Origin: an uncultured cyanobacterium
GTDB taxonomy: Bacteria > Cyanobacteriota > Cyanobacteriia > Phormidesmidales > Phormidesmidaceae
Assembly: GCA_963793265.1 (NCBI GenBank)
Contig: CAWBZI010000001.1
Location: 1,152,001-1,216,000, forward strand
DNA: 64,000 nt
Reading direction: 5' to 3'
Position 1 is the stretch's first letter. The number at the start of each line of letters is the position of its first letter. This document shows, piece after piece, positions 3,956 through 62,630 of this stretch. The translations under genes were made by a program, and so were the position numbers. The notes beneath the pieces are model-generated. The model was not told where the DNA came from. It did no database searches and saw only the letters and a program-made list of their open reading frames with translations.

Positions 3956-4828
3956 ATGCCCTACAGTCTTGTCCTCAATCTTGTACCGCTCTCTCCAATT
4001 CCCAAAACGCATCTAAGCGGGCGACATTTACACGCGCTGTTTTTGGATTTGGTCAGGTCGCATAACCCGGAGCTAGCAACCATCCTCCACGGCCAAACCA
4101 CCCAGAAAGCCTTTACCCTCAGCCCGCTACAAACCAATATCACCACGCAACAGTCACCCGAAACGCTGCAATGGAGCTATCGAAACGCCATCCCTGCGGG
4201 CTCCTTGTGCTGGTGGCGCATTACATTGCTAGATGACACGCTGTTTGCGCAGCTTGCTCACCTGTGGCTGGGCTTGGATAAACAGCAGCAGTGGCAGCTT
4301 GGGGGCAGTCCGATTCAGGTGACGCGCGTGATTGGGACGCAGCAGTTAGGTCAGCCCTGGGCGGGCTATGTGGGTTATCAGCAGCTTTATGAGCAGGCGA
4401 GCGATCGCACTCGAAAACTCCCTTTTAAGCTATGCACCCCCACTAACTTTCGCATCAGCGACTACGACTCTTCTATGCCAACGCGCGATCGCGTATTCAA
4501 AAGCCTGCTAAAGCGCTGGAACCACTACAGCAACATCCCGTTTGAGCCTGACATTATCAGCCATATCTACCCCGGCGAATACAGCATCCATTCAGAAATC
4601 GCCATCGACAGCCGCAGCAAATTTATCGGCTGTGTTGGCAATCTCTCTTTTAATATTCTGGGTGATCTGATGCCGAGCACGGTTAAACAAATTAACGCGC
4701 TGGCAGCGTTTTCTTTGTATGCAGGCGTCGGACGAAAAACGCCAATGGGTATGGGGCAAACGTTTTATGGTGAGATGAAGGCGAATGCTGTGCCTAAGCC
4801 TAAGCCGAGGCGCAAGGTAGCGGTATGA
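3956..4828 (+). CDS. cas6: CRISPR endoribonuclease Cas6
   Basis: MPYSLVLNL start, GRHLHALF, TPT motif and C-terminal Gly-rich loop YAGVGRKTPMGMG. Confidence 0.95.
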   Translation: MPYSLVLNLVPLSPIPKTHLSGRHLHALFLDLVRSHNPELATILHGQTTQKAFTLSPLQTNITTQQSPETLQWSYRNAIPAGSLCWWRITLLDDTLFAQLAHLWLGLDKQQQWQLGGSPIQVTRVIGTQQLGQPWAGYVGYQQLYEQASDRTRKLPFKLCTPTNFRISDYDSSMPTRDRVFKSLLKRWNHYSNIPFEPDIISHIYPGEYSIHSEIAIDSRSKFIGCVGNLSFNILGDLMPSTVKQINALAAFSLYAGVGRKTPMGMGQTFYGEMKANAVPKPKPRRKVAV

Positions 4829-5403
4829 GTATTCAGTATTTGCCGCTCTCCTATCTCAATGCTTGGGAGTATTGCCATCGCCGCTTTTACTTGGAGTATG
4901 AGCTGGGAGAGATGAAGATAAATGAGCATATTGTGATGGGGACTCATCTGCATCGGAACGTGGATGAGGAAACGGTGCGGCGAGAAGGAGAGACGACGAT
5001 TTATCAGCAGCAGTGGGTGTGGAGCGATCGCCTAAAAATATCCGGTATCATCGACGCCGTAGAAGAAACTCACGGACACCTTGTACCGCTCGAATACAAA
5101 AAAGGGCGCATGGGCAAACACCTGAGCGATCACTTTCAGCTTTGCGGGGCGGCGCTGTGTTTGGAGGAGCGCATGGGGAGAGAGATTGAGTATGGAGAGA
5201 TTTTTTATCATGCCAATCGGCGGCGGGAGCGGGTGATGTTTACTGAGGAATTGCGGGGTAAAACGGAGGCTGCTGTGATGGCAGCGATCACAGCCACCCA
5301 GTCCACCATTCCCGCACCCATCACCCACAAAACCAAATGTAGCGCCTGTAGCCTCACAGAAATTTGCCTACCCAAAGAAGTTCTCGCTTTACAACAATTA
5401 TGA
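4825..5403 (+). CDS. cas4: Cas4 exonuclease
   Basis: YCHRR, G-IID...PLEYKKG nuclease motif, QL, C-terminal CSACSLTEIC Fe-S cysteines; ATGA overlap with cas6. Confidence 0.95.
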   Translation: MSIQYLPLSYLNAWEYCHRRFYLEYELGEMKINEHIVMGTHLHRNVDEETVRREGETTIYQQQWVWSDRLKISGIIDAVEETHGHLVPLEYKKGRMGKHLSDHFQLCGAALCLEERMGREIEYGEIFYHANRRRERVMFTEELRGKTEAAVMAAITATQSTIPAPITHKTKCSACSLTEICLPKEVLALQQL

Positions 5404-6377
5404 CCTCTCTTTACATCACTCAGCCCGACGCCCGGCTCAGCAAAAAATACGAAGCCTTTAAAGTCTCGCTTAAGCAAGAAGATGGCACCTGGAAAAATCA
5501 ATCTGTGCCTGCGCAAACTGTTGAAGAAGTGGTGCTGATGGGCAATCCTTCGGTGACTGGCGATGCGCTGATGTATGCGCTGGAGCTAGGGATGCCGGTG
5601 CACTATCTCTCTCCTTTTGGTAAATACTTAGGGGCGGCGCTGCCAGGACATTCTCGCAACGGACAGCTCAGGCTGGCGCAGTATGGCGCTTACAAGGATG
5701 CTGATGCCAAGCTGACGATTGTGAAGGCGATGGTAACCGCTAAAATTCATAACCAGTATGCGGTGCTGTACCGGCACGGGCAAAAGGAGAATCCCTTAAA
5801 GCTGCGGAAGGCGTTGGTAGCGCAGCAGCATAGCGTGGATCAGGTGCGGGGGATTGAGGGGCTGGCGGCGAGAGAGTATTTTGCGGGGCTTTCGGGGATG
5901 CTGGCGGAGGAGTGGAAGTTTGGGGGGCGCAATCGACGGCCGCCGACTGATCCGGTGAACGCGCTGTTGAGCTTTGGCTATGCGCTGTTGCGAAGCCAGG
6001 TGACTTCGGCGGCGCATATTGCCGGGCTCGATCCTTATGTGGGCTATTTGCATGAGGTGCATCACGGGCAACCGGCGATGGTGCTGGATTTGATGGAGGA
6101 GTTTCGGCCTTTGGTGGCGGATAATGTGGTGCTCGCGACGATCAACAATCGGTCGATTCAGCCGCAGGATTTTACAGAGAGTTTGGGGGCGTACCGGCTG
6201 AGTGACGGGGGGCGGCGGACGTTTTTGCAGGCGTTTGATCGCAAGCTGAACGATACGTTTAAGCATCCAACGTTTGGGTACAAGTGTAGCTACCGAAGAG
6301 CGATCGCACTTCAGGCCCGGCTCTTAGCTAAGCATCTGCAAGAGGGCGTTGTTTACAAGGGTTTGGCGCTGCGATGA
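5400..6377 (+). CDS. cas1: Cas1 integrase (I-D type)
   Basis: RGIEGLAAREYF, RNRRPPTDPVNALLSFGY, GLDPYVGYLH and LDLMEEFRP; ATGA overlap with cas4. Confidence 0.97.
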   Translation: MTSLYITQPDARLSKKYEAFKVSLKQEDGTWKNQSVPAQTVEEVVLMGNPSVTGDALMYALELGMPVHYLSPFGKYLGAALPGHSRNGQLRLAQYGAYKDADAKLTIVKAMVTAKIHNQYAVLYRHGQKENPLKLRKALVAQQHSVDQVRGIEGLAAREYFAGLSGMLAEEWKFGGRNRRPPTDPVNALLSFGYALLRSQVTSAAHIAGLDPYVGYLHEVHHGQPAMVLDLMEEFRPLVADNVVLATINNRSIQPQDFTESLGAYRLSDGGRRTFLQAFDRKLNDTFKHPTFGYKCSYRRAIALQARLLAKHLQEGVVYKGLALR

Positions 6378-6667: not shown

Positions 6668-6731
6668 GAGGGGCACGGGCTATAGATGCTACCTTAAGGG
6701 CGTGAGCATTTGTTCAGCGGAGCCCTAACGT

Positions 6732-17620: not shown

Positions 17621-19003
17621 ATGAATTTTTCCCAGTCAATACAGGCACAGATTGCCGATCAGCGATCACTCTTCGCCACCCTAAAAACGCGCTCCCTAGC
17701 CTTCCGCCGCGCCCAGCTCAAAACCCTAAAAGCCAGCATCACCGCCGCTGCGGCCGACATTTCAGCCGCCCTCAGAGCCGACTTAGGCAAATCCGAAGCC
17801 GAAGCCTATCTCAGCGAAACTGTGCTGTGCCTCAACGACATCGACTTCGCCCTCAAGCACCTGTCACGATGGAGCAAACCCAAACGCGCCCGCGTCCCCA
17901 TTGCCTTCCAGCCCAGCCGCGCCAAAATCATCCCCGAACCGCTTGGCGTCGTGCTCATCATCAGCCCGTGGAACTATCCCTTTCAGCTCGCCATCGGCCC
18001 GCTTGTCAGTGCGATCGCCGCCGGTAACTGCGCCATCATCAAGCCCTCCGAAATCACACCCCACACCTCAGCGTTACTCTCAAAGCTCATCACCAGCACC
18101 TTTCCTCCCGACTACGTAAGCGTCATCGAAGGCAACGCCGACACCGCCCAAGCCCTCCTCGCAGAACCCTTCGACCACATTTTCTTCACCGGCTCCCCCG
18201 CCATCGGCAAAATCGTCATGCGCGCCGCTGCCGAACACCTCACCCCCGTCACCCTGGAGCTAGGCGGCAAAAGTCCGACGATTGTCACCGCCCAGGCCAA
18301 TATTACAGTCGCTGCCCGTCGCATTGTGTGGGGCAAATGCTTTAACGCTGGACAGACCTGCATTGCGCCTGACTATGTGCTGGTTGAAGAGAGCGTTAAG
18401 GGTGAGTTAGTGGAGGCGATCGCCCAAGCCAAAACCGACCTCTACGGCCAAGACATGCTCACCAGCTCCGACTATGGCCGCATCGTCAGCGACCACCACT
18501 TCCAACGCCTCCAAACCCTCCTTTCCACCACCACCGGCACCACCGCCCTCGGCGGACACAGCGACTCCGCCAAGCGCTACTTTGATCTCACCGTCATCGA
18601 CAGCCCCTCCCCCGAAGACGATCTCATGCGCTCCGAAATCTTCGGCCCCATCCTCCCCATCCTCACTATCGAAAACCTCAACGACGCCATCCAATTTATC
18701 AACCAGCGCCCAAAACCGCTTGCCCTCTATCTATTCTCAAACGACCGCGATCAGCAACAAGCCGTCCAAAATCAAACCTCATCCGGCTCATTTTGCATTA
18801 ACGAAACCGTCAGCCAATACGCCATTTCCACCCTTCCCTTCGGTGGCGTCGGCCAAAGCGGCATCGGCGCAGCCCACGGCAAAGCAGGTTTTGACACCTT
18901 CTCTCACTACAAAAGTGTTCTCAAAAATCCATCCTGGCTAGATATCCCGCTCCGCTATCCGCCCTATGCAGGCAAACTGCCGCTGCTCAAAAAGTTGTTG
19001 TAG
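17621..19003 (+). CDS. Aldehyde dehydrogenase (ALDH3-like)
   Basis: PWNYP, KPSE, FTGS, LELGGKSP, NAGQTCIAPDY, EIFGP and PFGGVG. Confidence 0.95.
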   Translation: MNFSQSIQAQIADQRSLFATLKTRSLAFRRAQLKTLKASITAAAADISAALRADLGKSEAEAYLSETVLCLNDIDFALKHLSRWSKPKRARVPIAFQPSRAKIIPEPLGVVLIISPWNYPFQLAIGPLVSAIAAGNCAIIKPSEITPHTSALLSKLITSTFPPDYVSVIEGNADTAQALLAEPFDHIFFTGSPAIGKIVMRAAAEHLTPVTLELGGKSPTIVTAQANITVAARRIVWGKCFNAGQTCIAPDYVLVEESVKGELVEAIAQAKTDLYGQDMLTSSDYGRIVSDHHFQRLQTLLSTTTGTTALGGHSDSAKRYFDLTVIDSPSPEDDLMRSEIFGPILPILTIENLNDAIQFINQRPKPLALYLFSNDRDQQQAVQNQTSSGSFCINETVSQYAISTLPFGGVGQSGIGAAHGKAGFDTFSHYKSVLKNPSWLDIPLRYPPYAGKLPLLKKLL

Positions 19004-20119: not shown

Positions 20120-21043
20120 TTAAGTCTTGGGCGCAATAAAACAGACTACTCGAAAACCGAAGCTGCTGTTGCGGAAGTCGCGCGAATTCCTGTCGCGATC
20201 GGCCGCGCGGCAGTCCGTCGGGAGGCTGAACCACGAACCGCCCCGCAGCACTTTATTCGCGTCAGCAGATTCCCAAACACTTCCATCAGCAGGTGCGCCT
20301 TTATAAGACTCATGCCACCCGTCGAGGCACCATTCCCATACATTGCCGTGCATGTCATGTAAGCCAAAGCCATTAGACGGAAAGCTGCCTACGTCTATCG
20401 TTGTCTCGCGAAATTCGCCCTTTGGCCCTTTGCTGTAGTTGCATGAATAAGTTTCGTTTTGATATTCCCAGTCTGTCCCTCGGTAGTTTTCTAAATTGGT
20501 TGTGATAGTCGGCCCAAAGTGAAAAGGCGTTGTTGTCCTCGCGCGGCAGGCATATTCCCACTGCGCTTCGCTGGGTAAAGTATACGACGCTCGTTTTGAG
20601 CGGTGCGATAGCCGTTTACAAAACTCTACCGCCTCCTCCCAGTTAACTCCTTCAACCGGACGTTGTGCACCTTTAAAGTATGCCGGATCTTTCTCCAAGT
20701 CGCGCTCTATCTTATTCATCGCTGCCACCGCCGCCCACTGCGCTTGAGTCACCGCAAGCTTGCCCATCCAAAACTCAGGCATCCTCACCTCATGCTGCGG
20801 ATACTCATCCTGACTAGCGCCTTCTTCTCCTGATGCTGCCCCCATTAAAAACTTTCCACCCGGAATCCGCACCATTTCTAAGCCGATATCATTGCCGAGC
20901 GCTTCAGTAAAATGCTCCGCCGTACCTGGAATCTTCTCAACCTCTTCGCCTTGCTCATTCACTCGCACGCTCTCAAAGCTGAAGGTAGGGTATTGAACAA
21001 CTTTCTCTAAAGTCTTGTATGCCTCCGGCTCAGTCGTCCCGAT
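20120..21043 (-). CDS. FGE-sulfatase (SUMF1) domain; likely the C-terminal part of the caspase gene beyond a frameshift
   Basis: MVRIPGGKFLMG, VTQAQW, LPSEAQWEYACRA, DMHGNVWEW, RGGSW and GFRVV. The frame is open back to 21043 (…PTFSFESVRVNEQGE) with no ATG before the domain's N-terminal segment. Confidence 0.85.
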   Translation of the reverse strand: MGTTEPEAYKTLEKVVQYPTFSFESVRVNEQGEEVEKIPGTAEHFTEALGNDIGLEMVRIPGGKFLMGAASGEEGASQDEYPQHEVRMPEFWMGKLAVTQAQWAAVAAMNKIERDLEKDPAYFKGAQRPVEGVNWEEAVEFCKRLSHRSKRASYTLPSEAQWEYACRARTTTPFHFGPTITTNLENYRGTDWEYQNETYSCNYSKGPKGEFRETTIDVGSFPSNGFGLHDMHGNVWEWCLDGWHESYKGAPADGSVWESADANKVLRGGSWFSLPTDCRAADRDRNSRDFRNSSFGFRVVCFIAPKT

Positions 21044-22160
21044 TCAGGAACATTACTCTCATCCGTTCTCCCAAAACCTTCTTTTCTTCAGCTTGCACAT
21101 CTTTATCGGTAAGGCCAAACGTTCGCTGCAAGCTTTTGAACGACTCAATTACATCATCGTCAAAAGGATAGGCCACCGCTTTTTCTTCTTTCAAAGCTTC
21201 AGCATAAAACGCTAGATGTTTCAGTTTTTCTCTATGCGGCCTCAACACCTCATCGATAATCTCTTTTACTAGCTCAGGCGTAATGCCAAGCTGCGGTTGC
21301 CAGTGTTGCACCAACTCCATGCGAGCCGCCGCATTAATTCGCCCATTGCGAGTCATTTTCTGCACTCGCTTGCGATAGCGCTGCACATTATCCACCTGAG
21401 CTTTTGCCACCCAAATATTTTCGCCTGCCTGCCCGTTAAAGATGGTAGGCTCCATCGTCGGTGCCGCCCCAATCACTCGCTTTTCCACATAGTCGTGCCA
21501 GTGCCGCACCGACACAAACTCACGCCCATCTAGCGCCGCGCCTCCGGTTTGCAATCCTTCTACCAGATAGCGAGTATATACAGACAGCTCCTCACCGATC
21601 TGCTCTAGGGCATAGCGCCGAGAAGTAGCCGCCGTCATCACGCACCAGCCCTTACCGCCTAGCTGCGCTTCCACGTCCATGCTGCCGTCATCCATTGTCA
21701 AAAAGCCATCGGCAAAGGCTGCGCCGAAACAACAGTCTAAAACAACAACTTTACGCTCAGCACCGCAGATTCTCAGTACGCCCTTGATAAAATCTGCTTC
21801 AACGGCTGTACCCGTGCTAAGCTGGCCGGTTTTGTGCAGCTTTGATTGCGCGGTTGTGAGATAAAACTTGTCTGTAAGATCCTTAATGCCATGGCCTGTG
21901 AAGTACAGGAGGGCCAGGTCATCTTTGCGAAGTGACTCAAATGTGTCGCTGATGCGCGATCGCATCTCCCCCACATCCGGGTTAATCAGCGACACCACCT
22001 CAAACCCACCAATAGCAGCATCACCCAACACCGCCGCCATCGCCGCCACCCCCTTAGCAGGACATTGCAACGAAGGCAGTCCCTCGCCATAGCTTCCTAC
22101 ACCAATAAGCAGCGCAACTTTCCTACCCGCTTTCTCTGACATACCTACTTCAGCCAACAT
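21030..22160 (-). CDS. Caspase-like (peptidase C14) protein, N-terminal part
   Basis: KVALLIGV, YFTGHG (His) and VLDCCF (Cys) dyad, SVYTRYLVEGL. Confidence 0.9.
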   Translation of the reverse strand: MLAEVGMSEKAGRKVALLIGVGSYGEGLPSLQCPAKGVAAMAAVLGDAAIGGFEVVSLINPDVGEMRSRISDTFESLRKDDLALLYFTGHGIKDLTDKFYLTTAQSKLHKTGQLSTGTAVEADFIKGVLRICGAERKVVVLDCCFGAAFADGFLTMDDGSMDVEAQLGGKGWCVMTAATSRRYALEQIGEELSVYTRYLVEGLQTGGAALDGREFVSVRHWHDYVEKRVIGAAPTMEPTIFNGQAGENIWVAKAQVDNVQRYRKRVQKMTRNGRINAAARMELVQHWQPQLGITPELVKEIIDEVLRPHREKLKHLAFYAEALKEEKAVAYPFDDDVIESFKSLQRTFGLTDKDVQAEEKKVLGERMRVMFLNRDD

Positions 22161-23112: not shown

Positions 23113-23694
23113 ATGGCGATCGCAACCTCGACAACAACTCTCACAACCGCCCTCAAAGAATGGTCAGTCGCCGTCGATGCCCTAGCAAACGGCGAAACTA
23201 TCCTACTCCTGCGCAAAGGCGGCATCAAAGAAAGTCAGGGTAAATTCTCAGCCCAGGCCGAGCGCGCTATTCTCTTTCCCACCTTTGAGCACCAAAAACC
23301 CGAACTGCTCAAGCCTCAATACCAAGCCGCCGCCACACCCGTTACCAAAGGCTGGCACCCCGACCATATCACCCTCAAGGCTTGGGCTCACATCACTCAT
23401 ATCTTTCTCACAGACGAAGCCGACAAAGTTGCTGCCCTTACCCCCTTTCATGTTTGGCAGAACAACCTAGCTCAGGAGCGTTTGAAGTGGAAGCCCAAAC
23501 AGCCGCTATATGTACTCGCGCTACGCGCCTACCGCTTTGCCAAGGCAATTGAGCTGCCTTGGGATGATAGTTATGGTGGCTGTAAGTCTTGGGTAGAGAT
23601 TAATGAAGAGATTGAGGTAGATGAGGCAAAAGCGGCGATCGCACAGGCAGATTATCTAAAGAAGGTAGAGGCGATCGCCCAAATCCTCCGCTAA
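23113..23694 (+). CDS. DUF1802 family protein
   Basis: ALKEW, LLRKGGIKE, LFPTFEHQ and YGGCKSWV; GGAG SD upstream. Confidence 0.85.
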   Translation: MAIATSTTTLTTALKEWSVAVDALANGETILLLRKGGIKESQGKFSAQAERAILFPTFEHQKPELLKPQYQAAATPVTKGWHPDHITLKAWAHITHIFLTDEADKVAALTPFHVWQNNLAQERLKWKPKQPLYVLALRAYRFAKAIELPWDDSYGGCKSWVEINEEIEVDEAKAAIAQADYLKKVEAIAQILR

Positions 23695-35131: not shown

Positions 35132-36400
35132 TTACTCATCACTAGGCTGAACCTCCGTAGCAATCATTGTCCTAGTTCCAGCAATCTGTCCAATAATCTC
35201 TTTAAGATCCATTCCCGTTGCCTGATTCACCTGCTCCAAAAATGAAGCCAGCTTAGTCACCTGCGTACCTTTCTCTGCATCAATCACCGTCACATTCTCC
35301 ACTGCAATCTTAGGAATGCTCGTCGCCATCATCTGCATCAGCACCTCTATTTTCTGATAAAGGAACACATCATGAGCATCATCGCCCGCCGCCTGCCACG
35401 CTTCGCCTAATCGCTGCAATCCCAGCACCTGAGCTTTGCCCGCTTCAATAATGCTCGCCGCTTCGCCTTTTGCGGATGCGATCGCCCGTTGCCTCTCCGC
35501 CTCAGCCGGGGCCACCACATCTGCCTGCAATCGCTGCTCCGTCTCCACCACGCGCGCCTTTTCCACCTTAATTTCAGCAGTTGCCTCAGCCACCTGCACC
35601 GCCGCCACCGACTCCACCTCTGTCACCAAAGCCGTCCGCTTCGTCAGGGCATCACGCACCCCTTTTACCGCGTCCATCTTGGCCACTTCTTCGTCACGCA
35701 TTAGCTCTCGCAACACCGTCACGCGCTTATTTGCAGAATCTTGAATAATCGACTCCGCCCTAGCTTGAGCCTCAGCAATTCGAGCATCGCGAATCAGCTC
35801 GGCCTGCTGCTTACGCCCAATACTATCGAGATAGCTCACGTCATCCGAAATCGTCTGAATCTGCAAGCTATCAAGCATCAGCCCCAGCCGCTGCAAATCT
35901 TCTTCAGCCTCTTCAAGCAAGCTCCGAGCAAACGCAATTTGATCGCCATTGGCTTCTTCCGGCGTCAAAATTGCCAGCACGCCGCGTAAGTTACCCTCCA
36001 AAGTCTCTTTCGCCAGCTTCTCTATTTGCTTGCGGCTTTTACCCAACAGCCGCTCAATCGCATTGTGAATTGTCGGCTCCTCACCTGCGACTTTAATGTT
36101 CGCCACCCCCGTTACCGTTAGCGGAATGCCGCCCTTGCTATAGGCTCCCACCACTTTAAGATCGATGATCATATTGGTGAGATCCATCCGAAAGGTTCTC
36201 TCTAAAAAAGGTATTTGAATGCTGCTGCCGCCTTTGACCAGTCGGTAGCCGACCTTCTTATCTTGAGGCAGATGAGTGGGCGTACCTGCAAAAATCAGTA
36301 CTTCTGACGGCTGGCAGATGTAGTAGAGGTTGCGGATGACTAGCCAGGCGCTGCTAGAGCCTAGAAAAGCTGCGCCGAATAAAAAAGCTAAGGTTCCCAT
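35132..36400 (-). CDS. Flotillin (SPFH) family protein
   Basis: TM anchor, AYSKGGIPL, ETLEGNLRGV and EA-rich coiled coil. Confidence 0.9.
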   Translation of the reverse strand: MGTLAFLFGAAFLGSSSAWLVIRNLYYICQPSEVLIFAGTPTHLPQDKKVGYRLVKGGSSIQIPFLERTFRMDLTNMIIDLKVVGAYSKGGIPLTVTGVANIKVAGEEPTIHNAIERLLGKSRKQIEKLAKETLEGNLRGVLAILTPEEANGDQIAFARSLLEEAEEDLQRLGLMLDSLQIQTISDDVSYLDSIGRKQQAELIRDARIAEAQARAESIIQDSANKRVTVLRELMRDEEVAKMDAVKGVRDALTKRTALVTEVESVAAVQVAEATAEIKVEKARVVETEQRLQADVVAPAEAERQRAIASAKGEAASIIEAGKAQVLGLQRLGEAWQAAGDDAHDVFLYQKIEVLMQMMATSIPKIAVENVTVIDAEKGTQVTKLASFLEQVNQATGMDLKEIIGQIAGTRTMIATEVQPSDE

Positions 36401-49191: not shown

Positions 49192-51813
49192 GTGATCCTT
49201 GCCGATCTCACACATAGCGATTCTTCTCGCACACCCACCCCAAAACCCATCATAGATGCCGCCGCCTGCTTTTATGCGCTGTGGAACAATCGTCTATACG
49301 GCATGTACATCATGGAGGTGCTTGAAAACGGCAAAGACTTCCGCTTCTTAGGCTTCAACGATACCTTTCATCAGCTCGAAGGCATTGTCAAAGCCAGCCC
49401 CACGCCAATACATCAGCTAGTCGGTCAGCGATTAAGCACAGGGCTGCCACCAGAGATGGCACGGCACTATCGACGCTACTTTGCAAGCTGCGTTCGCTCA
49501 GGTCATATTGTTGAATTTGAAGAGCATATTCCTAGCAGCAGCGGCGATACGTGGTGGAATCTGAGCATTGAACCGGTAAGAAACCAGAGCGGAGAAATCT
49601 ATCAACTGATTGCGACTGTTGCCGATATTACAGATAAGCGGCGGGCAGAAATAGCACTACAGGCTTCTCGCCAGGTGCTACAGCAAGTCATTGATTCGAT
49701 GCCGTCAGCCGTTATGTGGAAGGATCGCAACAGCATATACAAAGGATGCAATCTACCATTTGCTAAGATCGCAGGCTTTCAAAACGTTGCTGATTTAGTG
49801 GGTAAGAACGATTACGATATGCCCTGGGAAAAAGCAGAGGCTGACTGGTTTCGTAAGTGCGATCGCCAGGTGATGAATACAAACTGCGCTGAAATTGATA
49901 TTATCGAACCACAGCTTCAGGCAGATGGCAAGCAAGCCTGGCTCAGCACGAGCAAAATTCCGCTGCACGATAGCAATGGGCTAGTTTCTGGCGTTTTGGT
50001 TATGTTTGAAGACATTACCGATCGCAAAGACGCTCAAGAACAACAGGAAAGACTGCTCGCTATTTTAGAAGCCACACCTGATGTTGTCGGCATTACCGAT
50101 GCGGCGGGCAATCATCAGTATCTCAATCAGGCGGGGCAAACGCTATTTAATATTCAGCCTGAGCAAATCAATCAGTTTCACCTGGGCAATATCACTCGCC
50201 CTGACGTTGCAAAAAGGCTGATGGAAGAGGCCATTCCCGCTGCGATCGCCAACGGTAGCTGGCACGGCGAGTCTGTCATTCTATGCTGCAAAGGCCAACA
50301 GATTCCGGTGTCTCAGGTGATCATTTGCCATAAAACAGAAGAGGGTAAGGTAGCTTACTTTTCTTCGATTGCCAGGGACATTAGCGATCGCAAAGCCACC
50401 GAAACCCTGCTCAAAGATACTGCTGATCGCCAGGGGGTTCTTAACAAAATTACAGCTCAGGTTAGCAACTCACTCGATCTCGATACGGTCATTGCTACCA
50501 CGCTCATGTCTATGCATCAGGGGCTTAAGCTAGACTACTGCGCTTTTGCCTGGCTAGAAGAGGGGTCTGAGCCTACCTGGAAGGTAGTGCAGGCCGTTGA
50601 TGACACCGACCACGGCATTCCGTTGGATCAGCATCTAGTCGAGTATCCAAAAGAGTATATCGGCGTTAATTTTGAAGGCTTAGCTAATCAAGCAATCATT
50701 CAAACAAACGATACCAGCCGGTGCCACAGCGCGACTCACAAAAAGTTTCTCGAACGGCTAGGCGTTCACTCAGAAATCCTGGTGCCTATTCAAACAGATG
50801 CTGGCAAAACGGGTGTTATTGTCTGCTATCACATTCATCAAATTCATCCCTGGAGCACCGCAGAAGTAGAGTTGTTACGAGCCGTAGGAAATCAGCTTGC
50901 GATCGCTATCAACCAGGCCAACCTCTACGCTCAAAGCTGCCAGCAATCGCAGCAGCTCACCGCCGCGCTTAACCAGCTCAAACGCACCCAGGCCCAAATT
51001 ATCCAGGCCGAAAAAATGTCCAGCTTAGGACAAATGGTGGCAGGCGTCGCGCACGAAATCAACAATCCTGTGAACTTCATTCACGGCAATTTAGAGCCTG
51101 CTCAAGACTATACGCAAGATCTGTTGGGCCTCATTGCCCTATACCAAAAGACCTACACCACGCCGACCCCGGAGATAAAAGAAGAGCTTGAAACGGTCGA
51201 TTTAGAATTTGTAAAAGAAGACTTGCCTAAACTGTTGAATTCGATGATGGCAGGTACCGACCGCATCAGAGAGATAGTACTTTCGCTTCGCAACTTCTCT
51301 CGGCTTGATGAAGCCGCTGTGAAAACGGTTGACTTGCACGAAGGCATCGATAGCACCTTAGTAATTTTGAGCCATCGATTGAAGTGTAATAGGTGCGATC
51401 GCGCCATTAAAGTCAGCAAACAATACGGCGATCTTCCCCAGGTAGACTGCTACCCCAGCCAGCTCAATCAGGTCTTCATGAACATATTCGCCAACGCCAT
51501 CGACGCCTTAGACGATCATCAGCAACCACAGCTCACCATCACCACCGAGCTAACCAAACAGAACAACAAACCAACCCGAGCTATCATCCGCATCTGTGAC
51601 AACGGCCCCGGCATTCCCAAAGTCATCCAGCCTCAAATCCTAGATCCCTTCTTCACCACCAAGCCTGTCGGCAAAGGCACCGGTATGGGCATGTCCATCA
51701 GCTACCAAATCATCACCGAAAAGCACGGCGGCAACCTCACCTTCAGCTCAGAAATCGGCAAAGGTACCGAATTTGTTATTGACATTCCGATCCACCAGAT
51801 CGAGGCAACATAA
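49192..51813 (+). CDS. Soluble PAS-PAS-PAS-GAF histidine kinase
   Basis: PAC DIT/DIS-RK motifs, GAF, EKMSSLGQMVAGVAHEINNP, DNGPGI and GKGTGMG. Confidence 0.92.
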   Translation: MILADLTHSDSSRTPTPKPIIDAAACFYALWNNRLYGMYIMEVLENGKDFRFLGFNDTFHQLEGIVKASPTPIHQLVGQRLSTGLPPEMARHYRRYFASCVRSGHIVEFEEHIPSSSGDTWWNLSIEPVRNQSGEIYQLIATVADITDKRRAEIALQASRQVLQQVIDSMPSAVMWKDRNSIYKGCNLPFAKIAGFQNVADLVGKNDYDMPWEKAEADWFRKCDRQVMNTNCAEIDIIEPQLQADGKQAWLSTSKIPLHDSNGLVSGVLVMFEDITDRKDAQEQQERLLAILEATPDVVGITDAAGNHQYLNQAGQTLFNIQPEQINQFHLGNITRPDVAKRLMEEAIPAAIANGSWHGESVILCCKGQQIPVSQVIICHKTEEGKVAYFSSIARDISDRKATETLLKDTADRQGVLNKITAQVSNSLDLDTVIATTLMSMHQGLKLDYCAFAWLEEGSEPTWKVVQAVDDTDHGIPLDQHLVEYPKEYIGVNFEGLANQAIIQTNDTSRCHSATHKKFLERLGVHSEILVPIQTDAGKTGVIVCYHIHQIHPWSTAEVELLRAVGNQLAIAINQANLYAQSCQQSQQLTAALNQLKRTQAQIIQAEKMSSLGQMVAGVAHEINNPVNFIHGNLEPAQDYTQDLLGLIALYQKTYTTPTPEIKEELETVDLEFVKEDLPKLLNSMMAGTDRIREIVLSLRNFSRLDEAAVKTVDLHEGIDSTLVILSHRLKCNRCDRAIKVSKQYGDLPQVDCYPSQLNQVFMNIFANAIDALDDHQQPQLTITTELTKQNNKPTRAIIRICDNGPGIPKVIQPQILDPFFTTKPVGKGTGMGMSISYQIITEKHGGNLTFSSEIGKGTEFVIDIPIHQIEAT

Positions 51814-54066: not shown

Positions 54067-54882
54067 TCAACCGCTCTCCCCTACATTTGTCACTGCCAGC
54101 TCAGTAGAATTCGGTAGCTCAGTCCCACAGCGCCGACAAAACTGCGCGTCTGTTTCATGGCCTATCAGGCTGCAGCTTTCACAAGCCACCCGCACAGAAT
54201 TCTGCACCTTCGTAAACTGCTGAATAAAGTTACCAACCTGCGTCGGAATCAGCGCAATCCCCGTCAAAATCATTGCGATTGTCAGCCCCCGGCCCATCTC
54301 AGAAACCGGCGTAATATCGCCATAGCCCACCGTCGTCATGGTCACCACCGCGAAGTAGACGGCATCTAAAAAGGTGACAAACGCCTCGCTATTAGCCTCA
54401 TGCTCTGCCTGGTAAATCGCCCCTGCGTAAATAAAGATGATTGAGAACAGCGTGAACAAAATTCGTGCAAAAATCAGTCCTTCAGAGCCGCTGAGCCGAG
54501 CGAACCAAATCTTTTTCTCAAAGAAACGGGCCAGCCGCAAAATTCTCAGCCAGCGGATCAGTCGTAAAAAGCGCGTATCGACAAAGCCCAGCACAAATGG
54601 CAAAATCGCCACCAAATCAATCAGACCGTAAATGCTGAAAACAAACCGCAGCGGGCGCTTCGCAGACCACAGACGAACAACATATTCGAGGGTGAACAGC
54701 ACCAGAATGATCTGGTCTGCAACCTTGAGCCATGCTTGAGTGGACGAAGACAGCGGGTAGGTTTGGATAGCAAATAGCGCGGCAGATAAAAGGATAAGGA
54801 AGGCGATCGCACCATTCACCACCACCCCAGCCGTCGAATCACTCTCCTCTAGTACATGCCGAACCCGTTCTTTCAAAGTCAT
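54067..54882 (-). CDS. Voltage-gated-type potassium channel
   Basis: S4-like RFLRLIRWLRILRLAR, TTVGYGD filter and C-terminal CxxC...CxxC. Confidence 0.92.
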   Translation of the reverse strand: MTLKERVRHVLEESDSTAGVVVNGAIAFLILLSAALFAIQTYPLSSSTQAWLKVADQIILVLFTLEYVVRLWSAKRPLRFVFSIYGLIDLVAILPFVLGFVDTRFLRLIRWLRILRLARFFEKKIWFARLSGSEGLIFARILFTLFSIIFIYAGAIYQAEHEANSEAFVTFLDAVYFAVVTMTTVGYGDITPVSEMGRGLTIAMILTGIALIPTQVGNFIQQFTKVQNSVRVACESCSLIGHETDAQFCRRCGTELPNSTELAVTNVGESG

Positions 54883-55113: not shown

Positions 55114-56226
55114 ATGACACGTATTCAAACCGCCGACACACTCACTGCTCAGCCCCAGCGCGTTATCGCCGCCGACCCTTCAACCGGCCTTCTGGCCAAT
55201 CATCACGGATCAAACCCATCAAATATTGACACGTCCTACGATGGCCTAACGTTACCACCGCTACCTATCGTCCGTCCGCTGCTCATGGTCGGCCACGGCA
55301 CCCGCAACCCCAAAGGTCGCCAGGATCTCATCGACTTCGCCACCATCTACCGGCAGCTAGACACCTCACGCCCCGTTATCCCCTGCTTTTTAGAACTCAC
55401 CGAGCCCAGCATTCAAGACGGCGTAGACCAGTGCATTGAGCAAGGCTACACCGATATCTCCGTCCTCCCTATCCTTCTATTCGCCGCCCGCCACAACAAG
55501 TTCGATGTCACCAACGAACTCGACCGCGCCAAACGCAGGCACCCACAGCTCACCTTCCACTACGGTCGCCATTTCGGCATCACTCCCGCCATCTTCGATC
55601 TGTGGAAAGCTCGCCTTGCTTTGCTAGACACCCTCACTCATAATCCCAACGGCATCGCCCGCGAAGACACCGTTCTGATGTTCATCGGTCGCGGCTCTAG
55701 CGATCCTGATGCCAACGGCGACGTGTACAAAATGGCCCGCATGATGTGGGAAGGCAGCGGCTATCACACAGTCGAAACCTGCTTTATTGGCATTACCCAT
55801 CCCCGGCTAGAAGAAGGCTTTAGAAGGTCGCGTCTCTATCAGCCCAAGCGCATCGTCGTGCTGCCCTACTTCATGTTTACCGGCGTACTAATGGAAAAAA
55901 TTGAGGCGATCGCCACCCAGCAGCAAACCCTCCATCCCGACGCCGAAATCGCCATGCTCCCCGAAATGGGCATCCATCCTCAATTAATTAGAGTATTGCG
56001 CGACCGAGAAATCGAAACCCAGCGCGGACAGGTCGCCATGAACTGCGAAATGTGTAAATTCCGCATCGTCGCTGGAGAATCAGGCCACGGTCATGACCAT
56101 CACGGCCACGATCATCACGGCCATAATCATTCCAATGGTCACGGCCACAATCACGACCATGGCGCTAATCTAGATCCCTGCGCCGAGCCTGAAAAATACC
56201 ATCAGCGCATCTGGCAAGTTCCTTAG
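55114..56226 (+). CDS. cbiX: Sirohydrochlorin cobaltochelatase CbiX (long form, His-rich tail)
   Basis: [36 protein letters not shown] and poly-His. Confidence 0.92.
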
Positions 56227-56240: not shown

Positions 56241-56474
56241 ATGGCTGACTCTACGTTTAAGGTGGGCGATCGCGTCCGCATCGCCACCGCCCCCCCCTAC
56301 CTAAAAACCGACGACAACATGCCCATGCTACGCCCCCCAGACCTCGTAGAACTGGGGGAAGAAGGCGTCATCAAATCACGTAAACCCGGCGGCTACTTAG
56401 GCGTCCGATTCAGCCAGGGCACCTTCTTACTAGACGCCCAATACCTTGAACTAGCCACCGAGCCAGCAGAATAA
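56241..56474 (+). CDS. sipA: SipA (NblS-interacting, DUF3148)
   Basis: F.VGDRVR...PPYLKT.D.MPMLRPPDLV..GEEG and VRFSQGTFLLD. Confidence 0.85.
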   Translation: MADSTFKVGDRVRIATAPPYLKTDDNMPMLRPPDLVELGEEGVIKSRKPGGYLGVRFSQGTFLLDAQYLELATEPAE

Positions 56475-59827: not shown

Positions 59828-60213
59828 TGCTGGGAAGGGTCGATCTCAACTGTGAGGCAATAGTTCGTTTAGCTGTAGGAAACAGCGAGGGTAAGCGACA
59901 AATGGTCGAGGCCTTAATTGATACCGGGTTTACCGGATTCATGACTTTGCCACTACCCATTCTGAAGAAGTTAGGATTGCAAGCCTACAGGAGAGAAGAA
60001 GGCATTCTAGGGGATGGTAGCAGTTGCACCTTTGACGTGTACAGAGGTTTAGTAATTTGGGACAGTGAGCTTCGGTCTGTCGATATCAATGCATCTGAAG
60101 CTGGCGTACTCATCGGAATGAGCTTGCTCTATGGCTATCGAATGCAAATGGATGCGATAGAAGGGGGGACGGTAACCATCACCAGCTTGGTTTACCAAGG
60201 ATCGACTTATTGA
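59824..60213 (+). CDS. Clan AA (retropepsin-like) aspartic protease
   Basis: ALIDTGFTG catalytic motif, LGDGS flap and LIGMSLL. Confidence 0.85.
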   Translation: MMLGRVDLNCEAIVRLAVGNSEGKRQMVEALIDTGFTGFMTLPLPILKKLGLQAYRREEGILGDGSSCTFDVYRGLVIWDSELRSVDINASEAGVLIGMSLLYGYRMQMDAIEGGTVTITSLVYQGSTY

Positions 60214-60525
60214 AAGCATACTTCGCTCATTTGAGTTCTCAGAAGGTAGTGACAGTTATCGCGTCTCTAAATCAAGAGAATAAATATGTTTCTACATAGA
60301 GTTAGGCAAAATATGTGACTTTATCGAGAAGGTTCCAAACGAACATTTCTGTAAAGGTGCTCGATTGGAATCTCGATGTTCATACTCGCAATAGAGATGC
60401 GATCGCCCGCTCTATGTGGAAAATACAGCCACATCCGCCCTTCTCCCTTCCGAAAGCACTCCACCTGCATCCGCTTAGCGCTTATCAACGCATATTCTTT
60501 TGAACTTTACACGCCTACCAAAAGC

Positions 60526-61089
60526 TTATTCATAAAGCCATGCTACTAACTCTCCGAGCGTTAAGCTAAAGCCTTCTGCAAAATCAGGAACCGGCAGTTG
60601 CGCATTAGGATCTTCGTAGAATACAGGTCGCCAATCAGGTCTATAAACAAAAACGCAGTTCTCAGCCGGAGCAATGAGCCATCCCATTTCAGTACCGTGC
60701 TCAAGGCTGCACAATATTTTCGCCATAACCTTTGTCTGACTCTGATCGGGCGATAGTATTTCAATCATCCAGGGAGGAGCTGCAAACAGCTCACCGTCCA
60801 TCATGCCTCTGTCATCTCTGGGTATTTTTGACCAGGGCAAGACGGTAATATCAGGAACGATTGAACGCCCACCAAATGTACAGCGCAACTCTGGAAATGC
60901 AAGCGCCTTGTGTTCAGCTTCGAGTACTGAATTGACAGATGTTGTGAGCTTGCCTTGTATGCGGCTGTGCGCTGCTTTCGGCATAGGCTTCTCAAGAATT
61001 TGACCATCTATGTACTCACTTGCTGGCTTCGTATCGGGCAGTTGAAGGAAGTCTTCTAAAGTAAGAGTTCTAGAGGGAGACTGTACCAT
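60526..61089 (-). CDS. Uma2 family (DUF820) protein
   Basis: LEDFLQLP.TKPASEYIDG, PELRCTF, VPDI and IEILSPDQ. Confidence 0.9.
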   Translation of the reverse strand: MVQSPSRTLTLEDFLQLPDTKPASEYIDGQILEKPMPKAAHSRIQGKLTTSVNSVLEAEHKALAFPELRCTFGGRSIVPDITVLPWSKIPRDDRGMMDGELFAAPPWMIEILSPDQSQTKVMAKILCSLEHGTEMGWLIAPAENCVFVYRPDWRPVFYEDPNAQLPVPDFAEGFSLTLGELVAWLYE

Positions 61090-61199
61090 AACAGGATGAG
61101 CCGTAAGCTTGGACTATCTGTATCGTATCTCATACTTAAAAGGGCACTAGATAAAATATCTAATGCCCTTTCCTATCTAACTATGTCAAGCGACTACCG

Positions 61200-62630
61200 C
61201 TAGCGAGCCCCAGCCATCGCCGGAACCTTCGCCTCAGACTTCTGCATCTCAGCTAATATAGCCGACACATTTGCCTTCGCATCACCAAAGAGCATCTGCG
61301 AATTGTCTTTATAGAACAAAGGATTGTCTACGCCTGCATATCCAACAGATAGAGAGCGCTTCATCACGACAACATTTGCTGCGTTCCACACTTCCAACAC
61401 AGGCATTCCTGCAATCGGACTGGTGGGATCGTCGAGTGCACTTGGGTTCACCGTGTCGTTTGCACCAATGACGAGTACGACATCAGTTTCTGTAAAGTCT
61501 TCATTAATTTCGTCCATTTCAAGCACGACATCATAAGGCACATTGGCTTCAGCTAATAGAACGTTCATGTGCCCTGGCAAACGACCTGCTACGGGGTGAA
61601 TGCCGAAGCGGACGGTTGTGCCGCGATCGCGCAAAATCTTCGTAATATCCGCCACCGCATGTTGCGCCTGAGCCACCGCCATCCCATAGCCCGGCGTAAT
61701 AATCACACTGCTCGCATCATTCAACAATTCAACCGTCTCTTCCACAGTCGTAGAAGTCGCCGTACCACCGGGCGCAGTCGCCCCAGAACTCTTCACAGCG
61801 CCCTGACCAAAGCCACCCAAAATCACGCTGATAAAAGAGCGATTCATCGCCTGACACATAATAATGCTCAAAATCGCACCGCTACTGCCCACCAGCGCAC
61901 CCGTCACAATCAACAGATCGTTCGAGAGCATAAAGCCCGCCGCCGCCGCTGCCCAGCCCGAATAGCTGTTCAACATCGAAATCACAACCGGCATATCCGC
62001 CCCGCCAATCGCTGCAACCAAGTGAGCGCCCAGCAGTCCAGCCAAACCACACATACCAAGCAGTGCAGGCAGGCCAGCCGAGCCTTCCGCGCCCATAAAG
62101 ACAAACCCAAGGGCAGCTGTGCCAGCCAATAAACCAATGTTCAACAGATGCCGACCTGGTAGCGTCAGCGGCTTACTGCTGATAATCGCCTTCAGCTTAC
62201 CAAAGGCAATCACAGAGCCCGTAAAGGTCACCGCGCCGATGAATACACCCACATAAATTTCAATCATGTGAATAGTCTCTTCTGCGCCAACTAGACCAGA
62301 CTCAGGCTGCAAGTAGTTACCAATACCAACCAGCACAGCGGCCAAACCAACAAAGCTATGCAGCACAGCCACCAGCTCAGGCATCTCCGTCATCTCAACC
62401 CGTGAGGCCAAAAACGCACCAATCACCACGCCCGGCAAGATCACCGCCGCTAGCACCGTGTAGTTTGTAATGCCAGCCCCCAGCGCGGTCGCGCCAATCG
62501 CCAGCGCCATCCCAATAATACCGTAGAGATTCCCACGCTTAGCCGTTTCTTGAGTAGACAATCCACCCAAACTTAAAATGAACAGAATGATAGCCGCAAT
62601 ATAAGCGACCGTCACTAAATTGTTGGACAT
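61200..62630 (-). CDS. pntB: NAD(P) transhydrogenase beta subunit
   Basis: [40 protein letters not shown] and [18 protein letters not shown]. Confidence 0.98.

What the first reader, a model, noticed from the sequence alone, without database searches (positions are those of the whole stretch)
4341..61700. Local G/C strand skew flips at HIP1 sites, as if HIP1 nucleates a directional mutation or repair process
Seen: the + strand is repeatedly G/T-rich just 5' of GCGATCGC and C/A-rich just 3' of it, in genes on either strand, giving a sawtooth inside single ORFs. Hand counts over 60-nt flanks: HIP1 4401 (cas6, +) 22G/12C before and 7G/22C after; 5024 (cas4, +) 25G/8C then 12G/18C; 18416 (ALDH, +) 21G/10C then 12G/23C; 21956 (caspase, -) 19G/12C then 7G/25C. 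The same look appears near 50899, 51395, 54804, 55907, 56266 and 61623. In ALDH it shows at wobble positions (gtg/gag/gtt approaching the site, gcc/acc/ctc after it). Some sites (e.g. ~35478) do not flip, and I chose the examples by eye. Known: HIP1 function is unresolved, and its core is a DNA methyltransferase target. Inference: nicking, resection or repair synthesis polarised from HIP1 leaves a strand-specific substitution footprint. I am not aware of this being described.
Basis: partly seen in the sequence, partly recalled or inferred. Interest (0 to 1): 0.85.

Follow-up and report, generated by a model that had tools for sequence, protein, structure and literature searches.

The report
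G/C strand bias flips at HIP1
In this cyanobacterium the silent positions of genes are G-rich just before and C-rich just after nearly every copy of the abundant palindrome GCGATCGC, a footprint that points to a one-directional DNA process starting at this long-unexplained word.

Summary
Across 6,885 HIP1 sites, + strand GC skew is +0.36 just 5' and -0.36 just 3' of GCGATCGC. HIP1 is the extreme outlier among 166 palindromic octamers. The flip occurs in genes on either strand and is concentrated at silent sites: fourfold G 0.42-0.46 against C 0.11-0.18. 85% of sites show it. It reaches about 1 kb and forms a sawtooth. An additive term for each neighbouring HIP1 explains 99% of the binned ln(G/C) at fourfold sites.

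In codon alignments with a sister species, only the species that has the site shows the flip. Only intact HIP1 and its CpG-to-TpG derivative carry it.

A proxy has the same sign in 218 of 221 HIP1-rich cyanobacteria. This genome is the strongest, and one HIP1-dense genome has none.

Best reading: a strand-polar DNA transaction starting at HIP1 biases substitutions. Mutation bias, biased conversion and selection are not yet separated, and the enzyme is unknown. My literature searches found no report of it.

The parts
4341..61700 (.). The window has 64 HIP1 (GCGATCGC) sites in all. Plus-strand G-C skew forms a sawtooth that resets from G-rich to C-rich at most of them.
   Evidence: 64 sites against 2.1 expected. 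52 of 64 have D>0, mean D 11.7. The genome-wide sawtooth holds in every spacing class.
4401..4408 (.). HIP1 site inside a + strand ORF (3956-4828); strong flip.
   Evidence: 22G/12C before, 7G/22C after; D=+30; ORF from my own caller.
5024..5031 (.). HIP1 site inside a + strand ORF (4825-5403); flip.
   Evidence: 25G/8C then 11G/18C; D=+21.
18416..18423 (.). HIP1 site inside a + strand ORF (17621-19003); strong flip.
   Evidence: 22G/9C then 11G/24C; D=+31.
21956..21963 (.). HIP1 site inside a - strand ORF (21030-22160); strong flip of the same sign on the + strand.
   Evidence: 19G/12C then 7G/25C; D=+33.
50899..50906 (.). HIP1 site with flip.
   Evidence: 15G/14C then 11G/25C; D=+16.
51395..51402 (.). 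HIP1 site with flip.
   Evidence: 15G/10C then 12G/20C; D=+16.
54803..54810 (.).
   Evidence: 22G/7C then 7G/27C; D=+36.
55906..55913 (.).
   Evidence: 14G/14C then 11G/26C; D=+13.
56266..56273 (.). HIP1 site with flip.
   Evidence: 14G/13C then 9G/29C; D=+24.
61623..61630 (.). HIP1 site with flip.
   Evidence: 21G/16C then 11G/23C; D=+21.
35478..35485 (.). Both flanks are C-rich and the flip is only weak.
   Evidence: 12G/21C then 13G/28C; D=+7.

Best explanation
HIP1 is the anchor of a strand-polar DNA transaction. On each strand something starts at GCGATCGC and runs 5'->3', most simply a nick or break at the site followed by removal and re-making of the strand 3' of it. Tract lengths run from tens of bases to about 1 kb. 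Because the two strands of a flank are then treated unequally (one re-made or donor, the other template or recipient), substitutions become biased. The strand 5' of the site gains G (and a little T) and loses C, and the strand 3' of it does the reverse. HIP1 is a palindrome, so the same thing happens on both strands, giving the G-to-C flip and, between sites, a sawtooth.

Shown here: the polarity, the centring on the site, the additivity, the range, the dependence on the intact octamer and on the site being present, and the concentration at silent positions.

Inferred: that the cause is DNA processing and not selection; the 5'->3' direction; and the favoured sub-variant. That sub-variant is Elhai's proposed HIP1/GmeC-directed mismatch repair without MutH, with excision in one direction only. 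Replication errors on the new strand would then be corrected only 3' of a HIP1, and the errors that survive (G.T and purine-purine mispairs) would enrich G/T on the 5' flank strand.
For: Metaplot of 6,885 sites: skew +0.36/-0.36 at 1-5 nt, +0.11/-0.12 at 41-60, +0.04/-0.05 at 101-150. Specific to HIP1 among 166 palindromic octamers and among all palindromic 4- and 6-mers more than 400 nt from a HIP1 (largest mean D 1.1 against 8.98, z 86, for HIP1). Same size on sense and antisense strands; fourfold-site G 0.42-0.46, C 0.11-0.18 against a baseline of about 0.28 each. All 8 fourfold codon families flip; at twofold sites C/(C+T) is 0.28-0.36 5' and 0.61 3', and G/(G+A) is 0.65-0.66 5' and 0.36-0.43 3'. 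No extended hairpin: mirror complementarity equals expectation. Only intact HIP1 and GTGATCGC/GCGATCAC carry the flip; CGATCG alone (n=209), GATC, and HIP1 lacking an outer base (n=321) do not. Isolated flanks (n=1,098): fourfold skew +0.52 at 1-50 nt, about +0.15 at 500, +0.05-0.07 at 1,000. Additive model ln(G/C)=F(d to downstream site)-F(d to upstream site), with F=1.39, 0.90, 0.58, 0.36, 0.27, 0.14; weighted R2 0.992. Orthologue test against a sister species: third-position D of 7.8+-0.7 against 1.1+-0.6 at G000-only sites, and 9.1+-0.7 against 1.5+-0.7 at G032-only sites. HIP1-free strong positive flips are no more common than negative ones. A per-base model explains 89% of 4-mer strand asymmetry and no Chi-like word stands out. 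The range of about 1 kb matches the reach of methyl-directed repair cited by Elhai 2015 (PMC4390886, section 18). Kamoku and Nielsen 2024 report that homologous HIP1 raises integration in a Chi-like but addAB-independent way (Discussion).
Against: Intergenic positions respond only about 0.3 times as strongly as fourfold sites (ln G/C 0.19-0.21 against 0.72 at 21-60 nt), wherever the HIP1 lies. A purely mutational bias should show fully at unconstrained sites. One HIP1-dense genome (G023, 565 sites sampled) has no flip even 1-10 nt from the site, so HIP1 is not sufficient. No MutH or Vsr homologue was found. MutL, RecJ and XseA do not distinguish strong-flip from no-flip genomes, and C5-methyltransferase presence does not track flip strength. 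The net flux has a large transversion part, C>G +51 beside A>G +54, unlike the transition-dominated spectra I recall for repair-deficient bacteria. Synonymous conservation near shared HIP1 sites is only slightly lower than far away, 0.26-0.29 against 0.31, so neither strong mutagenesis nor strong protection is seen. No mutation or polymorphism data were available: relatives are 67-84% identical over the listed DNA matches, and fourfold-site identity with G032 is 0.465.
Confidence: 0.55

Rival explanations
1. Polar biased gene conversion. HIP1 is where recombination or integration of incoming single-stranded DNA (natural transformation, or exchange between genome copies) starts. The heteroduplex therefore always has the same strand arrangement relative to the site, and unequal correction of the different mismatches acts as a fixation bias: G favoured on the 5' flank strand, C on the 3' flank strand.
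For: The net flux behaves like a preference scale G > A~T > C: everything goes to G, C goes to everything, and A<>T is balanced (+1). Twofold sites follow the same scale. Fourfold sites respond far more than intergenic DNA, which could fit a process that needs conserved homology. HIP1 raises transformation and integration in a homology-dependent way (Kamoku and Nielsen 2024, abstract and Discussion). HIP1 abundance correlates with competence and pilus genes (GBE 2026, PMC13756078, abstract and section 13).
Against: By my reasoning from the mismatch-repair hierarchy (recalled), canonical invasion by a 3' tail ending at HIP1, with correction against the invading strand, predicts the opposite sign (a C-rich 5' flank). 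A donor strand whose 5' end is at HIP1 would be needed. G023 has dense HIP1 and no flip. There are no population data.
Confidence: 0.2
2. Natural selection on the flanks. HIP1 works only when the strand 5' of it is G(T)-rich, for instance because the single strand ending at HIP1 must load RecA or another protein that prefers such sequence, as proposed for Chi in E. coli. Silent sites are tuned for this.
For: The G-rich flank is the strand that would end 3' at HIP1 after canonical 5'->3' resection. RecA prefers TGG-type repeats that resemble Chi (PMC3763553, abstract seen in a search listing). Chi lying in GT-rich islands is recalled (Tracy, Chedin and Kowalczykowski 1997, not read). The effect is strongest where change is cheapest, at silent sites, and weak in intergenic DNA.
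Against: It would need effective selection on hundreds of silent sites up to about 1 kb from each of about 6,900 sites, in all genes. The T component is small. A per-base model explains 89% of word asymmetry and no preferred motif emerges. Dense HIP1 exists without any flip in G023.
Confidence: 0.12
3. Reverse causation. Switches from G-rich to C-rich arise for other reasons, and HIP1 is created or kept preferentially at them.
For: The left half of HIP1 has one more G than C and the right half the reverse. In the species lacking a site, a small residual D of 2.0-3.6 over all codon positions remains at the orthologous position.
Against: At orthologous positions the species without the site has almost no third-position flip, 1.1-1.5 against 7.8-9.1. 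Strong positive flips without HIP1 are fewer than strong negative ones, e.g. 39 HIP1-free positive against 60 negative peaks at |D|>=35 after removing peaks near HIP1. Other G-left/C-right palindromes such as GGCGCGCC do not flip.
Confidence: 0.04
4. A by-product of gene orientation, amino-acid composition, codon frame of the motif, replication skew, or a subset of repeat elements.
For: HIP1 has preferred codon frames, and amino-acid usage shifts slightly (V, E, G up 5'; A, T, P, I up 3').
Against: The flip has the same sign in + and - strand genes, is largest at fourfold sites and small at positions 1 and 2. The per-site distribution is unimodal. D is 11.2-12.6 in all three regional-skew classes. 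The flip is absent at the same codons of the orthologue that lacks the site.
Confidence: 0.01

Closest known systems
Methyl-directed mismatch repair (Dam/MutH of E. coli) and Elhai's proposed GmeC-directed repair at HIP sites
   Same: A short methylated palindrome with GATC at its core, spaced about 1 per kb. The reach of about 1 kb matches what Elhai cites for E. coli (PMC4390886 section 18). It involves strand-specific excision and resynthesis starting from a nick at the site.
   Different: No MutH homologue here, and none in any cyanobacterium according to passages of PMC5101192. As I recall, E. coli excision works in both directions and leaves no skew around GATC. Here GATC and CGATCG alone have no effect, and the footprint implies one direction only. 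Elhai's paper does not contain the word 'skew'.
Chi recombination hotspots in GT-rich context (E. coli RecBCD; AddAB in Bacillus)
   Same: An over-represented octamer. The strand 5' of the site, which would become the 3' tail, is G(T)-rich. HIP1 has been called Chi-like.
   Different: Chi is asymmetric and oriented with replication, while HIP1 is a palindrome. Deleting addAB did not remove the HIP1 effect in PCC 7002. RecC is reported only in marine picocyanobacteria. The bias here is mainly G against C, with little T.
Replication-associated GC skew (G/T-rich leading strand)
   Same: The same kind of strand asymmetry, strongest at silent sites. HIP1 looks like a miniature terminus, with positive skew changing to negative.
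   Different: It switches about every 0.8 kb instead of twice per chromosome. It is independent of regional skew and anchored to a word.
Strand-asymmetric mutagenesis at meiotic double-strand-break hotspots, and GC-biased gene conversion at eukaryotic hotspots
   Same: A compositional footprint centred on a recombination start site, mirror-symmetric and decaying over about 1 kb.
   Different: These are eukaryotic and protein-defined hotspots. gBGC raises G+C on both strands equally, whereas here G+C barely changes (0.57-0.60 at fourfold sites) and only the strand distribution does. This comparison is recalled and prompted by an earlier scan note; I did not read the paper.
Very-short-patch repair (Vsr/Dcm)
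   Same: A methyltransferase-linked nick next to a methylated cytosine, with 5'->3' repair synthesis, known to distort word frequencies.
   Different: No Vsr homologue. Patches are about 10-20 nt (recalled), against an effect reaching about 1 kb.

Membership tests
HIP1 (highly iterated palindrome 1) | The exact octamer GCGATCGC, greatly over-represented | tested here: met
   64 in the window against 2.1 expected; 6,884 in 5.68 Mb. It is the most abundant palindromic octamer by 17-fold.
HIP1 (highly iterated palindrome 1) | Conserved between species beyond neutral expectation | tested here: met
   221 shared of 337 (G000) and 348 (G032) aligned sites, while fourfold-site identity is 0.465.
Methyl-directed mismatch repair (MutHLS type) | MutH-family nicking endonuclease | tested here: not met
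   No PF02976 match in a 98.97% complete genome.
Methyl-directed mismatch repair (MutHLS type) | MutL and a 5'->3' single-strand exonuclease are present | tested here: met
   MutL_C, RecJ and XseA were found in G000, but equally in the no-flip genome G023.
Methyl-directed mismatch repair (MutHLS type) | A methyltransferase acting on the site | tested here: inconclusive
   G000 has 7-8 PF00145 matches of unknown specificity. Across the class, C5-MTase presence does not track the flip. m4C and m6A enzymes were not examined.
Methyl-directed mismatch repair (MutHLS type) | Reach of about 1 kb from the site | tested here: met
   Effect measurable to 641-1,500 nt (F=0.14); isolated flanks +0.05-0.07 at 1 kb.
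Chi-type recombination hotspot | Asymmetric sequence recognised from one side by RecBCD/AddAB | tested here: not met
   HIP1 is a palindrome. RecBCD/AddAB were not searched for in this genome. In the literature, addAB was dispensable for the HIP1 effect.
Chi-type recombination hotspot | G/T-rich context on the strand 5' of the site | tested here: met
   G strongly enriched and T weakly enriched.
Chi-type recombination hotspot | Stimulates recombination to one side | not testable with these tools
   Needs genetic crosses or transformation assays.
Very-short-patch repair | Vsr endonuclease | tested here: not met
   No PF03852 match.
Replication strand skew | Sign changes only at origin and terminus, and skew follows the replichore | tested here: not met
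   The flip occurs at 85% of 6,887 sites. D is constant across regional-skew terciles.
Transcription-associated skew | Sign depends on gene strand | tested here: not met
   Same sign and size on sense and antisense strands.

The most novel reading that the evidence does not exclude
HIP1 is the entry point of a so far unidentified, unidirectional (5'->3') strand-excision or strand-exchange machine, a MutH-independent counterpart of methyl-directed repair or a palindromic recombination initiator. It acts so often that it has written a kilobase-scale G/C sawtooth into the silent sites of virtually every gene. The strength and reach of this activity is a lineage-specific trait across cyanobacteria: none in one family, strongest in this genus. 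That could explain why HIP1 is kept at about one per kilobase.
Probability: 0.3. Interest if true: 0.95.

Novelty: categorically new. Interest (0 to 1): 0.88.

Why it matters
HIP1 has been known for about thirty years with no agreed function. Current proposals are repair signal, recombination hotspot, uptake sequence and chromosome architecture. A polar, additive, site-dependent footprint that reaches about 1 kb is a new kind of evidence. It indicates that something directional happens to DNA at HIP1, gives its polarity and length scale, and makes the question testable with nick or ssDNA mapping, mutation-accumulation lines and population SNPs. Natural positive and negative controls exist in the strong-flip and no-flip lineages.

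There is also a practical consequence. In such genomes, distance to HIP1 predicts the local synonymous G/C ratio (binned R2 0.99). Codon-usage, skew-based origin prediction and horizontal-transfer detection in cyanobacteria would all be confounded by it.

Tried and rejected
- Extended hairpin or cruciform: mirror-position complementarity equals expectation at 1-60 nt.
- Gene orientation, amino-acid composition, codon frame: rejected.
- Replichore or regional skew: D is constant across terciles.
- Other words: none of the other palindromic octamers or 4-/6-mers far from HIP1 flips. ATCGCGAT (+0.17) was not followed up and may be overlapping HIP1 copies.
- Partial motifs: CGATCG, GATC and one-off variants show no flip, except the CpG-to-TpG variant.
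- C5 cytosine methyltransferase as the lineage factor: suggested by G023 having none, then rejected class-wide. Median ratio is 1.33 with and 1.41 without, and five strong flippers have none. Similarity did not identify the CGATCG-specific enzyme: all pairs were 37% identical or less.
- MutL, RecJ, XseA: no contrast among 5 genomes.
- Parsimony polarisation of substitutions: not attempted, because relatives are 67-84% identical over the listed DNA matches and fourfold-site identity with G032 is 0.465.
- A first proxy with periodic G or C was confounded by codon frame and replaced by a frame-neutral run of nine. That proxy under-reads AT-rich genomes: G307 has ratio 1.00 but direct D of 4.6+-1.3.
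- Contig 1 of G020 and of G027 was too short to use.
- A first notebook search of earlier findings returned nothing.

Full report

The window (contig 1, 1,152,001-1,216,000 of a 5.68-Mb, 7-contig genome) has 64 copies of GCGATCGC where 2.1 are expected. I define D as (G-C) in the 78 nt upstream minus (G-C) in the 78 nt downstream, skipping 2 nt next to the motif. In the window 52 of 64 sites have D>0, with mean 11.7. Genome-wide, 85.0% of 6,887 sites are positive against 47.5% of 20,000 random positions, with mean 11.6 against 0.02. The distribution is a single shifted peak, and all seven contigs agree.

Over 6,885 sites the + strand GC skew is:
- +0.36 / -0.36 at 1-5 nt
- +0.18 / -0.19 at 11-20 nt
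- +0.11 / -0.12 at 41-60 nt
- +0.04 / -0.05 at 101-150 nt

The T-A skew has the same sign but is small. Among the 166 palindromic octamers with at least 20 copies, HIP1 has an up-minus-down skew difference of +0.290. The set as a whole, HIP1 included, has mean -0.005 and sd 0.047. No palindromic 4-mer or 6-mer more than 400 nt from a HIP1 shows a flip: the largest mean D is 1.1, against 8.98 (z 86) for HIP1 with the same flanks.

I made gene calls with my own ORF and codon-usage caller (4,696 genes). With them:
- The flip has the same sign in + and - strand genes.
- It is concentrated at third codon positions (GC3 skew +0.60 to -0.50 next to the site in + strand genes).
- It is small at positions 1 and 2.
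- At fourfold-degenerate sites the strand 5' of the site has G 0.42-0.46 and C 0.11-0.18 within 40 nt, from baselines of about 0.28 each.
- The size is the same whether that strand is sense or antisense.

D is 11.2-12.6 in all three classes of regional (50-kb) skew. So the metaplot is not flat, control words do not flip, and amino-acid composition, gene orientation and replichore do not explain the signal.

ANATOMY OF THE EFFECT

- All eight fourfold codon families flip. At twofold sites, 5' of HIP1, T is preferred to C (C/(C+T) 0.28-0.36 against 0.61 on the 3' side) and G to A (0.65-0.66 against 0.36-0.43). The order on the 5' flank strand is therefore G > T~A > C.
- G+C content barely moves.
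- Flanks are not complementary beyond what composition predicts, so this is not a long hairpin.
- A per-base model (0.26 log units per G versus C, 0.08 per T versus A) explains 89% of the strand asymmetry of 4-mers. No Chi-like word stands out.
- Only the intact octamer matters. More than 300 nt from a true HIP1 there is no flip at CGATCG without the outer G and C (n=209), at GATC, at HIP1 missing its last C (n=321), or at core variants. GTGATCGC/GCGATCAC, the CpG-to-TpG derivative, keeps +0.11/-0.12 (n=385).
- The reach is long. In 1,098 flanks with no other HIP1 within 2 kb, fourfold-site skew is +0.52 at 1-50 nt, +0.23 at 151-200, about +0.15 near 500 and +0.05-0.07 near 1,000 nt.
- Between neighbouring sites the skew is a sawtooth that crosses zero at the midpoint in every spacing class.
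- I binned ln(G/C) at fourfold sites by distance to the downstream and upstream HIP1. An additive model F(d_down)-F(d_up) fits it with weighted R2 0.992. F is 1.39 (1-30 nt), 0.90 (31-80), 0.58 (81-160), 0.36 (161-320), 0.27 (321-640) and 0.14 (641-1,500).

THE FLIP FOLLOWS THE SITE, NOT THE GENE

Relatives in the genus are only 67-84% identical over the listed DNA matches, which is too far for parsimony. I therefore used presence and absence of the site. From 400 kb of a syntenic sister species, G032 (itself flipping: mean D 12.4, 88% positive, n=529), I built 242 orthologue codon alignments. Median protein identity was 82% and fourfold-site identity 0.465. There were 221 shared HIP1 positions, 116 in G000 only and 127 in G032 only.

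Third-position D:

| Site class | G000 | G032 |
|---|---|---|
| Shared | 10.2 | 11.5 |
| G000 only | 7.8+-0.7 | 1.1+-0.6 |
| G032 only | 1.5+-0.7 | 9.1+-0.7 |

Strong flips do not exist on their own. Of 339 peaks with D>=35, 249 lie within 15 nt of a HIP1 and 22 at its TpG derivative. The HIP1-free remainder is smaller than the number of equally strong negative peaks, 93, none of which is at a HIP1. This argues against HIP1 settling on pre-existing switches.

At isolated species-specific sites I compared the species that has the site with the one that lacks it. Net flux on the 5' flank strand within 60 nt (1,165 fourfold sites) was C>G +51, A>G +54, T>G +26, C>T +30, C>A +13 and A>T +1.

DISTRIBUTION ACROSS CYANOBACTERIA

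I needed a proxy that the genome search could count. It is the number of HIP1 sites followed at +21..+29 by nine bases without G, divided by the number followed by nine bases without C, counted on both strands. The expected value is 1 if there is no polarity, and the measure does not depend on reading frame.
- I searched 301 genomes of the class.
- I scored the 221 with at least 150 counted flanks and dropped 80 HIP1-poor genomes.
- 218 have a ratio above 1 and 184 have z>3.
- The median is 1.36, and 18 reach 2 or more.
- This genome is the highest at 2.97.
- Strength follows lineage. The window's genus gives 1.9-3.0, and one other family has a median of 2.3. The family with the highest flank counts gives only 0.9-1.2.

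Direct metaplots agree (G023 first seen):
- G061 (other family): mean D 9.2+-0.7, n=292, but gone by about 100-200 nt.
- G023 (other family, 565 sites in 200 kb): mean D 0.10+-0.38 and no skew even at fourfold sites 1-10 nt away.
- G307 (38% G+C): a weak, long-range flip that the proxy missed.

So the sign is nearly universal, while strength and reach vary. HIP1 by itself is not sufficient.

MECHANISM

The only asymmetry that separates 'G-rich then C-rich' from its opposite is chemical strand direction. On each strand, the 5' side of HIP1 differs from the 3' side. A transaction that starts at the site and runs one way along each strand would produce this. The additive, slowly decaying F(d) looks like a tract-length distribution.

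The version I favour extends Elhai's 2015 proposal. He proposed that methylated HIP sites direct mismatch repair through an unknown MutH analogue over about 1 kb (section 18 read). Suppose excision ran only 5'->3' from the nick. Errors on a new strand would then be removed only 3' of a HIP1, and the strand 5' of the site would keep its unrepaired errors. From what I recall of polymerase error spectra, G.T and purine-purine mispairs outnumber A.C and pyrimidine-pyrimidine mispairs. That gives the observed direction for five of the six substitution pairs and neutrality for A<>T. This step is inference from recalled biochemistry and was not tested here.

A break at HIP1 followed by 5'->3' resection and fill-in has the same geometry.

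Points against a purely mutational reading:
- Intergenic positions respond only about 0.3 times as strongly as fourfold sites, wherever the site lies.
- The transversion share of the flux is large.
- Synonymous conservation near shared sites differs little from that far away (0.26-0.29 against 0.31).

A polar biased gene conversion tied to transformation or recombination, or selection for G-rich single strands ending at HIP1, therefore remains open. HIP1 raises integration in a Chi-like but addAB-independent manner (Kamoku and Nielsen 2024; abstract and Discussion read). HIP1 abundance correlates with competence genes (GBE 2026; abstract and section 13 read).

No enzyme was identified:
- No MutH or Vsr homologue.
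- MutL, RecJ and XseA are present in strong-flip and no-flip genomes alike.
- The tempting lead that G023 lacks any C5 methyltransferase failed across the class.

NOVELTY

The following searches turned up nothing on base composition around HIP1:
- Full-text search for HIP1 + cyanobacteria + 'GC skew': 2 papers, both genome reports.
- 'Highly iterated palindrome' + 'skew': 4 papers hold both terms (3 listed). In the one I opened (PMC13756078) 'skew' refers to uneven sampling. The other listed two are a genome report and a horizontal-transfer methods paper, judged from the listing only.
- A broader search on palindrome, strand asymmetry and synonymous sites.
- The word 'skew' does not occur in Xu et al. 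2018 (PMC5861425, term search) or in Elhai 2015.

Subscription-only papers and supplements were not seen.

This scan's own earlier notes describe similar word- or site-anchored skew patterns in other genomes (a GGCC-anchored sawtooth in an archaeon; mirror skew at insertion hot spots). They are unchecked leads. None concerns HIP1.

VERDICT

The interpretation as a polar process nucleated at HIP1 is well supported in outline. Whether it acts through mutation, conversion or selection, and which proteins carry it out, remains open.

Noticed in passing
genome-wide (e.g. window 23635-23678, two HIP1 sites 36 nt apart): ATCGCGAT is the second most flip-associated palindromic octamer (n=298, +0.072/-0.098). 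It is contained in overlapping tandem HIP1 (GCGATCGCGATCGC), which may explain it.
   Followed up: no
genome-wide: GTGATCGC/GCGATCAC (HIP1 with one CpG changed to TpG) occurs 385 times more than 300 nt from any HIP1 and keeps most of the flip (+0.11/-0.12). It is also the commonest octamer opposite species-specific HIP1 sites (14 of 243). This suggests frequent interconversion by cytosine deamination or its reversal.
   Followed up: partly
genome-wide: GGGCCC far from HIP1 shows a mild opposite flip (mean D -3.4, z -3.1, n=58); CCGCGG and CCATGG lean the same way.
   Followed up: no
window 1-64000: The + strand of the window is C-rich overall (18,074 C against 14,212 G, skew -0.12) and lies in a stretch of contig 1 with regional skew about -0.07. 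Large-scale skew along the contigs is irregular, with no clear two-arm pattern.
   Followed up: partly
G000 contig 6, 55603-57079 (outside the window): A second recJ-like gene appears split: two adjacent matches, one containing a TGA, both below the family cut-off. The other RecJ copy sits in an unusually long open frame of 1,080 aa, as in G115 at 1,098 aa.
   Followed up: no
G000 contig 1, 809848-811017 and contig 4, 93034-94084 (outside the window): Two of the eight C5 methyltransferase matches look broken: one has internal TGA and TAG stops, and one is split into two pieces.
   Followed up: no
L053-L057 (G307:C1:500001-600000): In this 38% G+C genome the pooled fourfold-site skew 5' of HIP1 stays at +0.14 to +0.25 from 11 out to 400 nt without decaying (51 sites), a much longer-range pattern than in G000 or G061.
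   Followed up: no
genome-wide: Protein composition shifts slightly around HIP1. Val, Glu and Gly are commoner within 60 nt 5' of the site in the sense direction, and Ala, Thr, Pro and Ile commoner 3' of it, so the bias reaches non-synonymous positions.
   Followed up: partly
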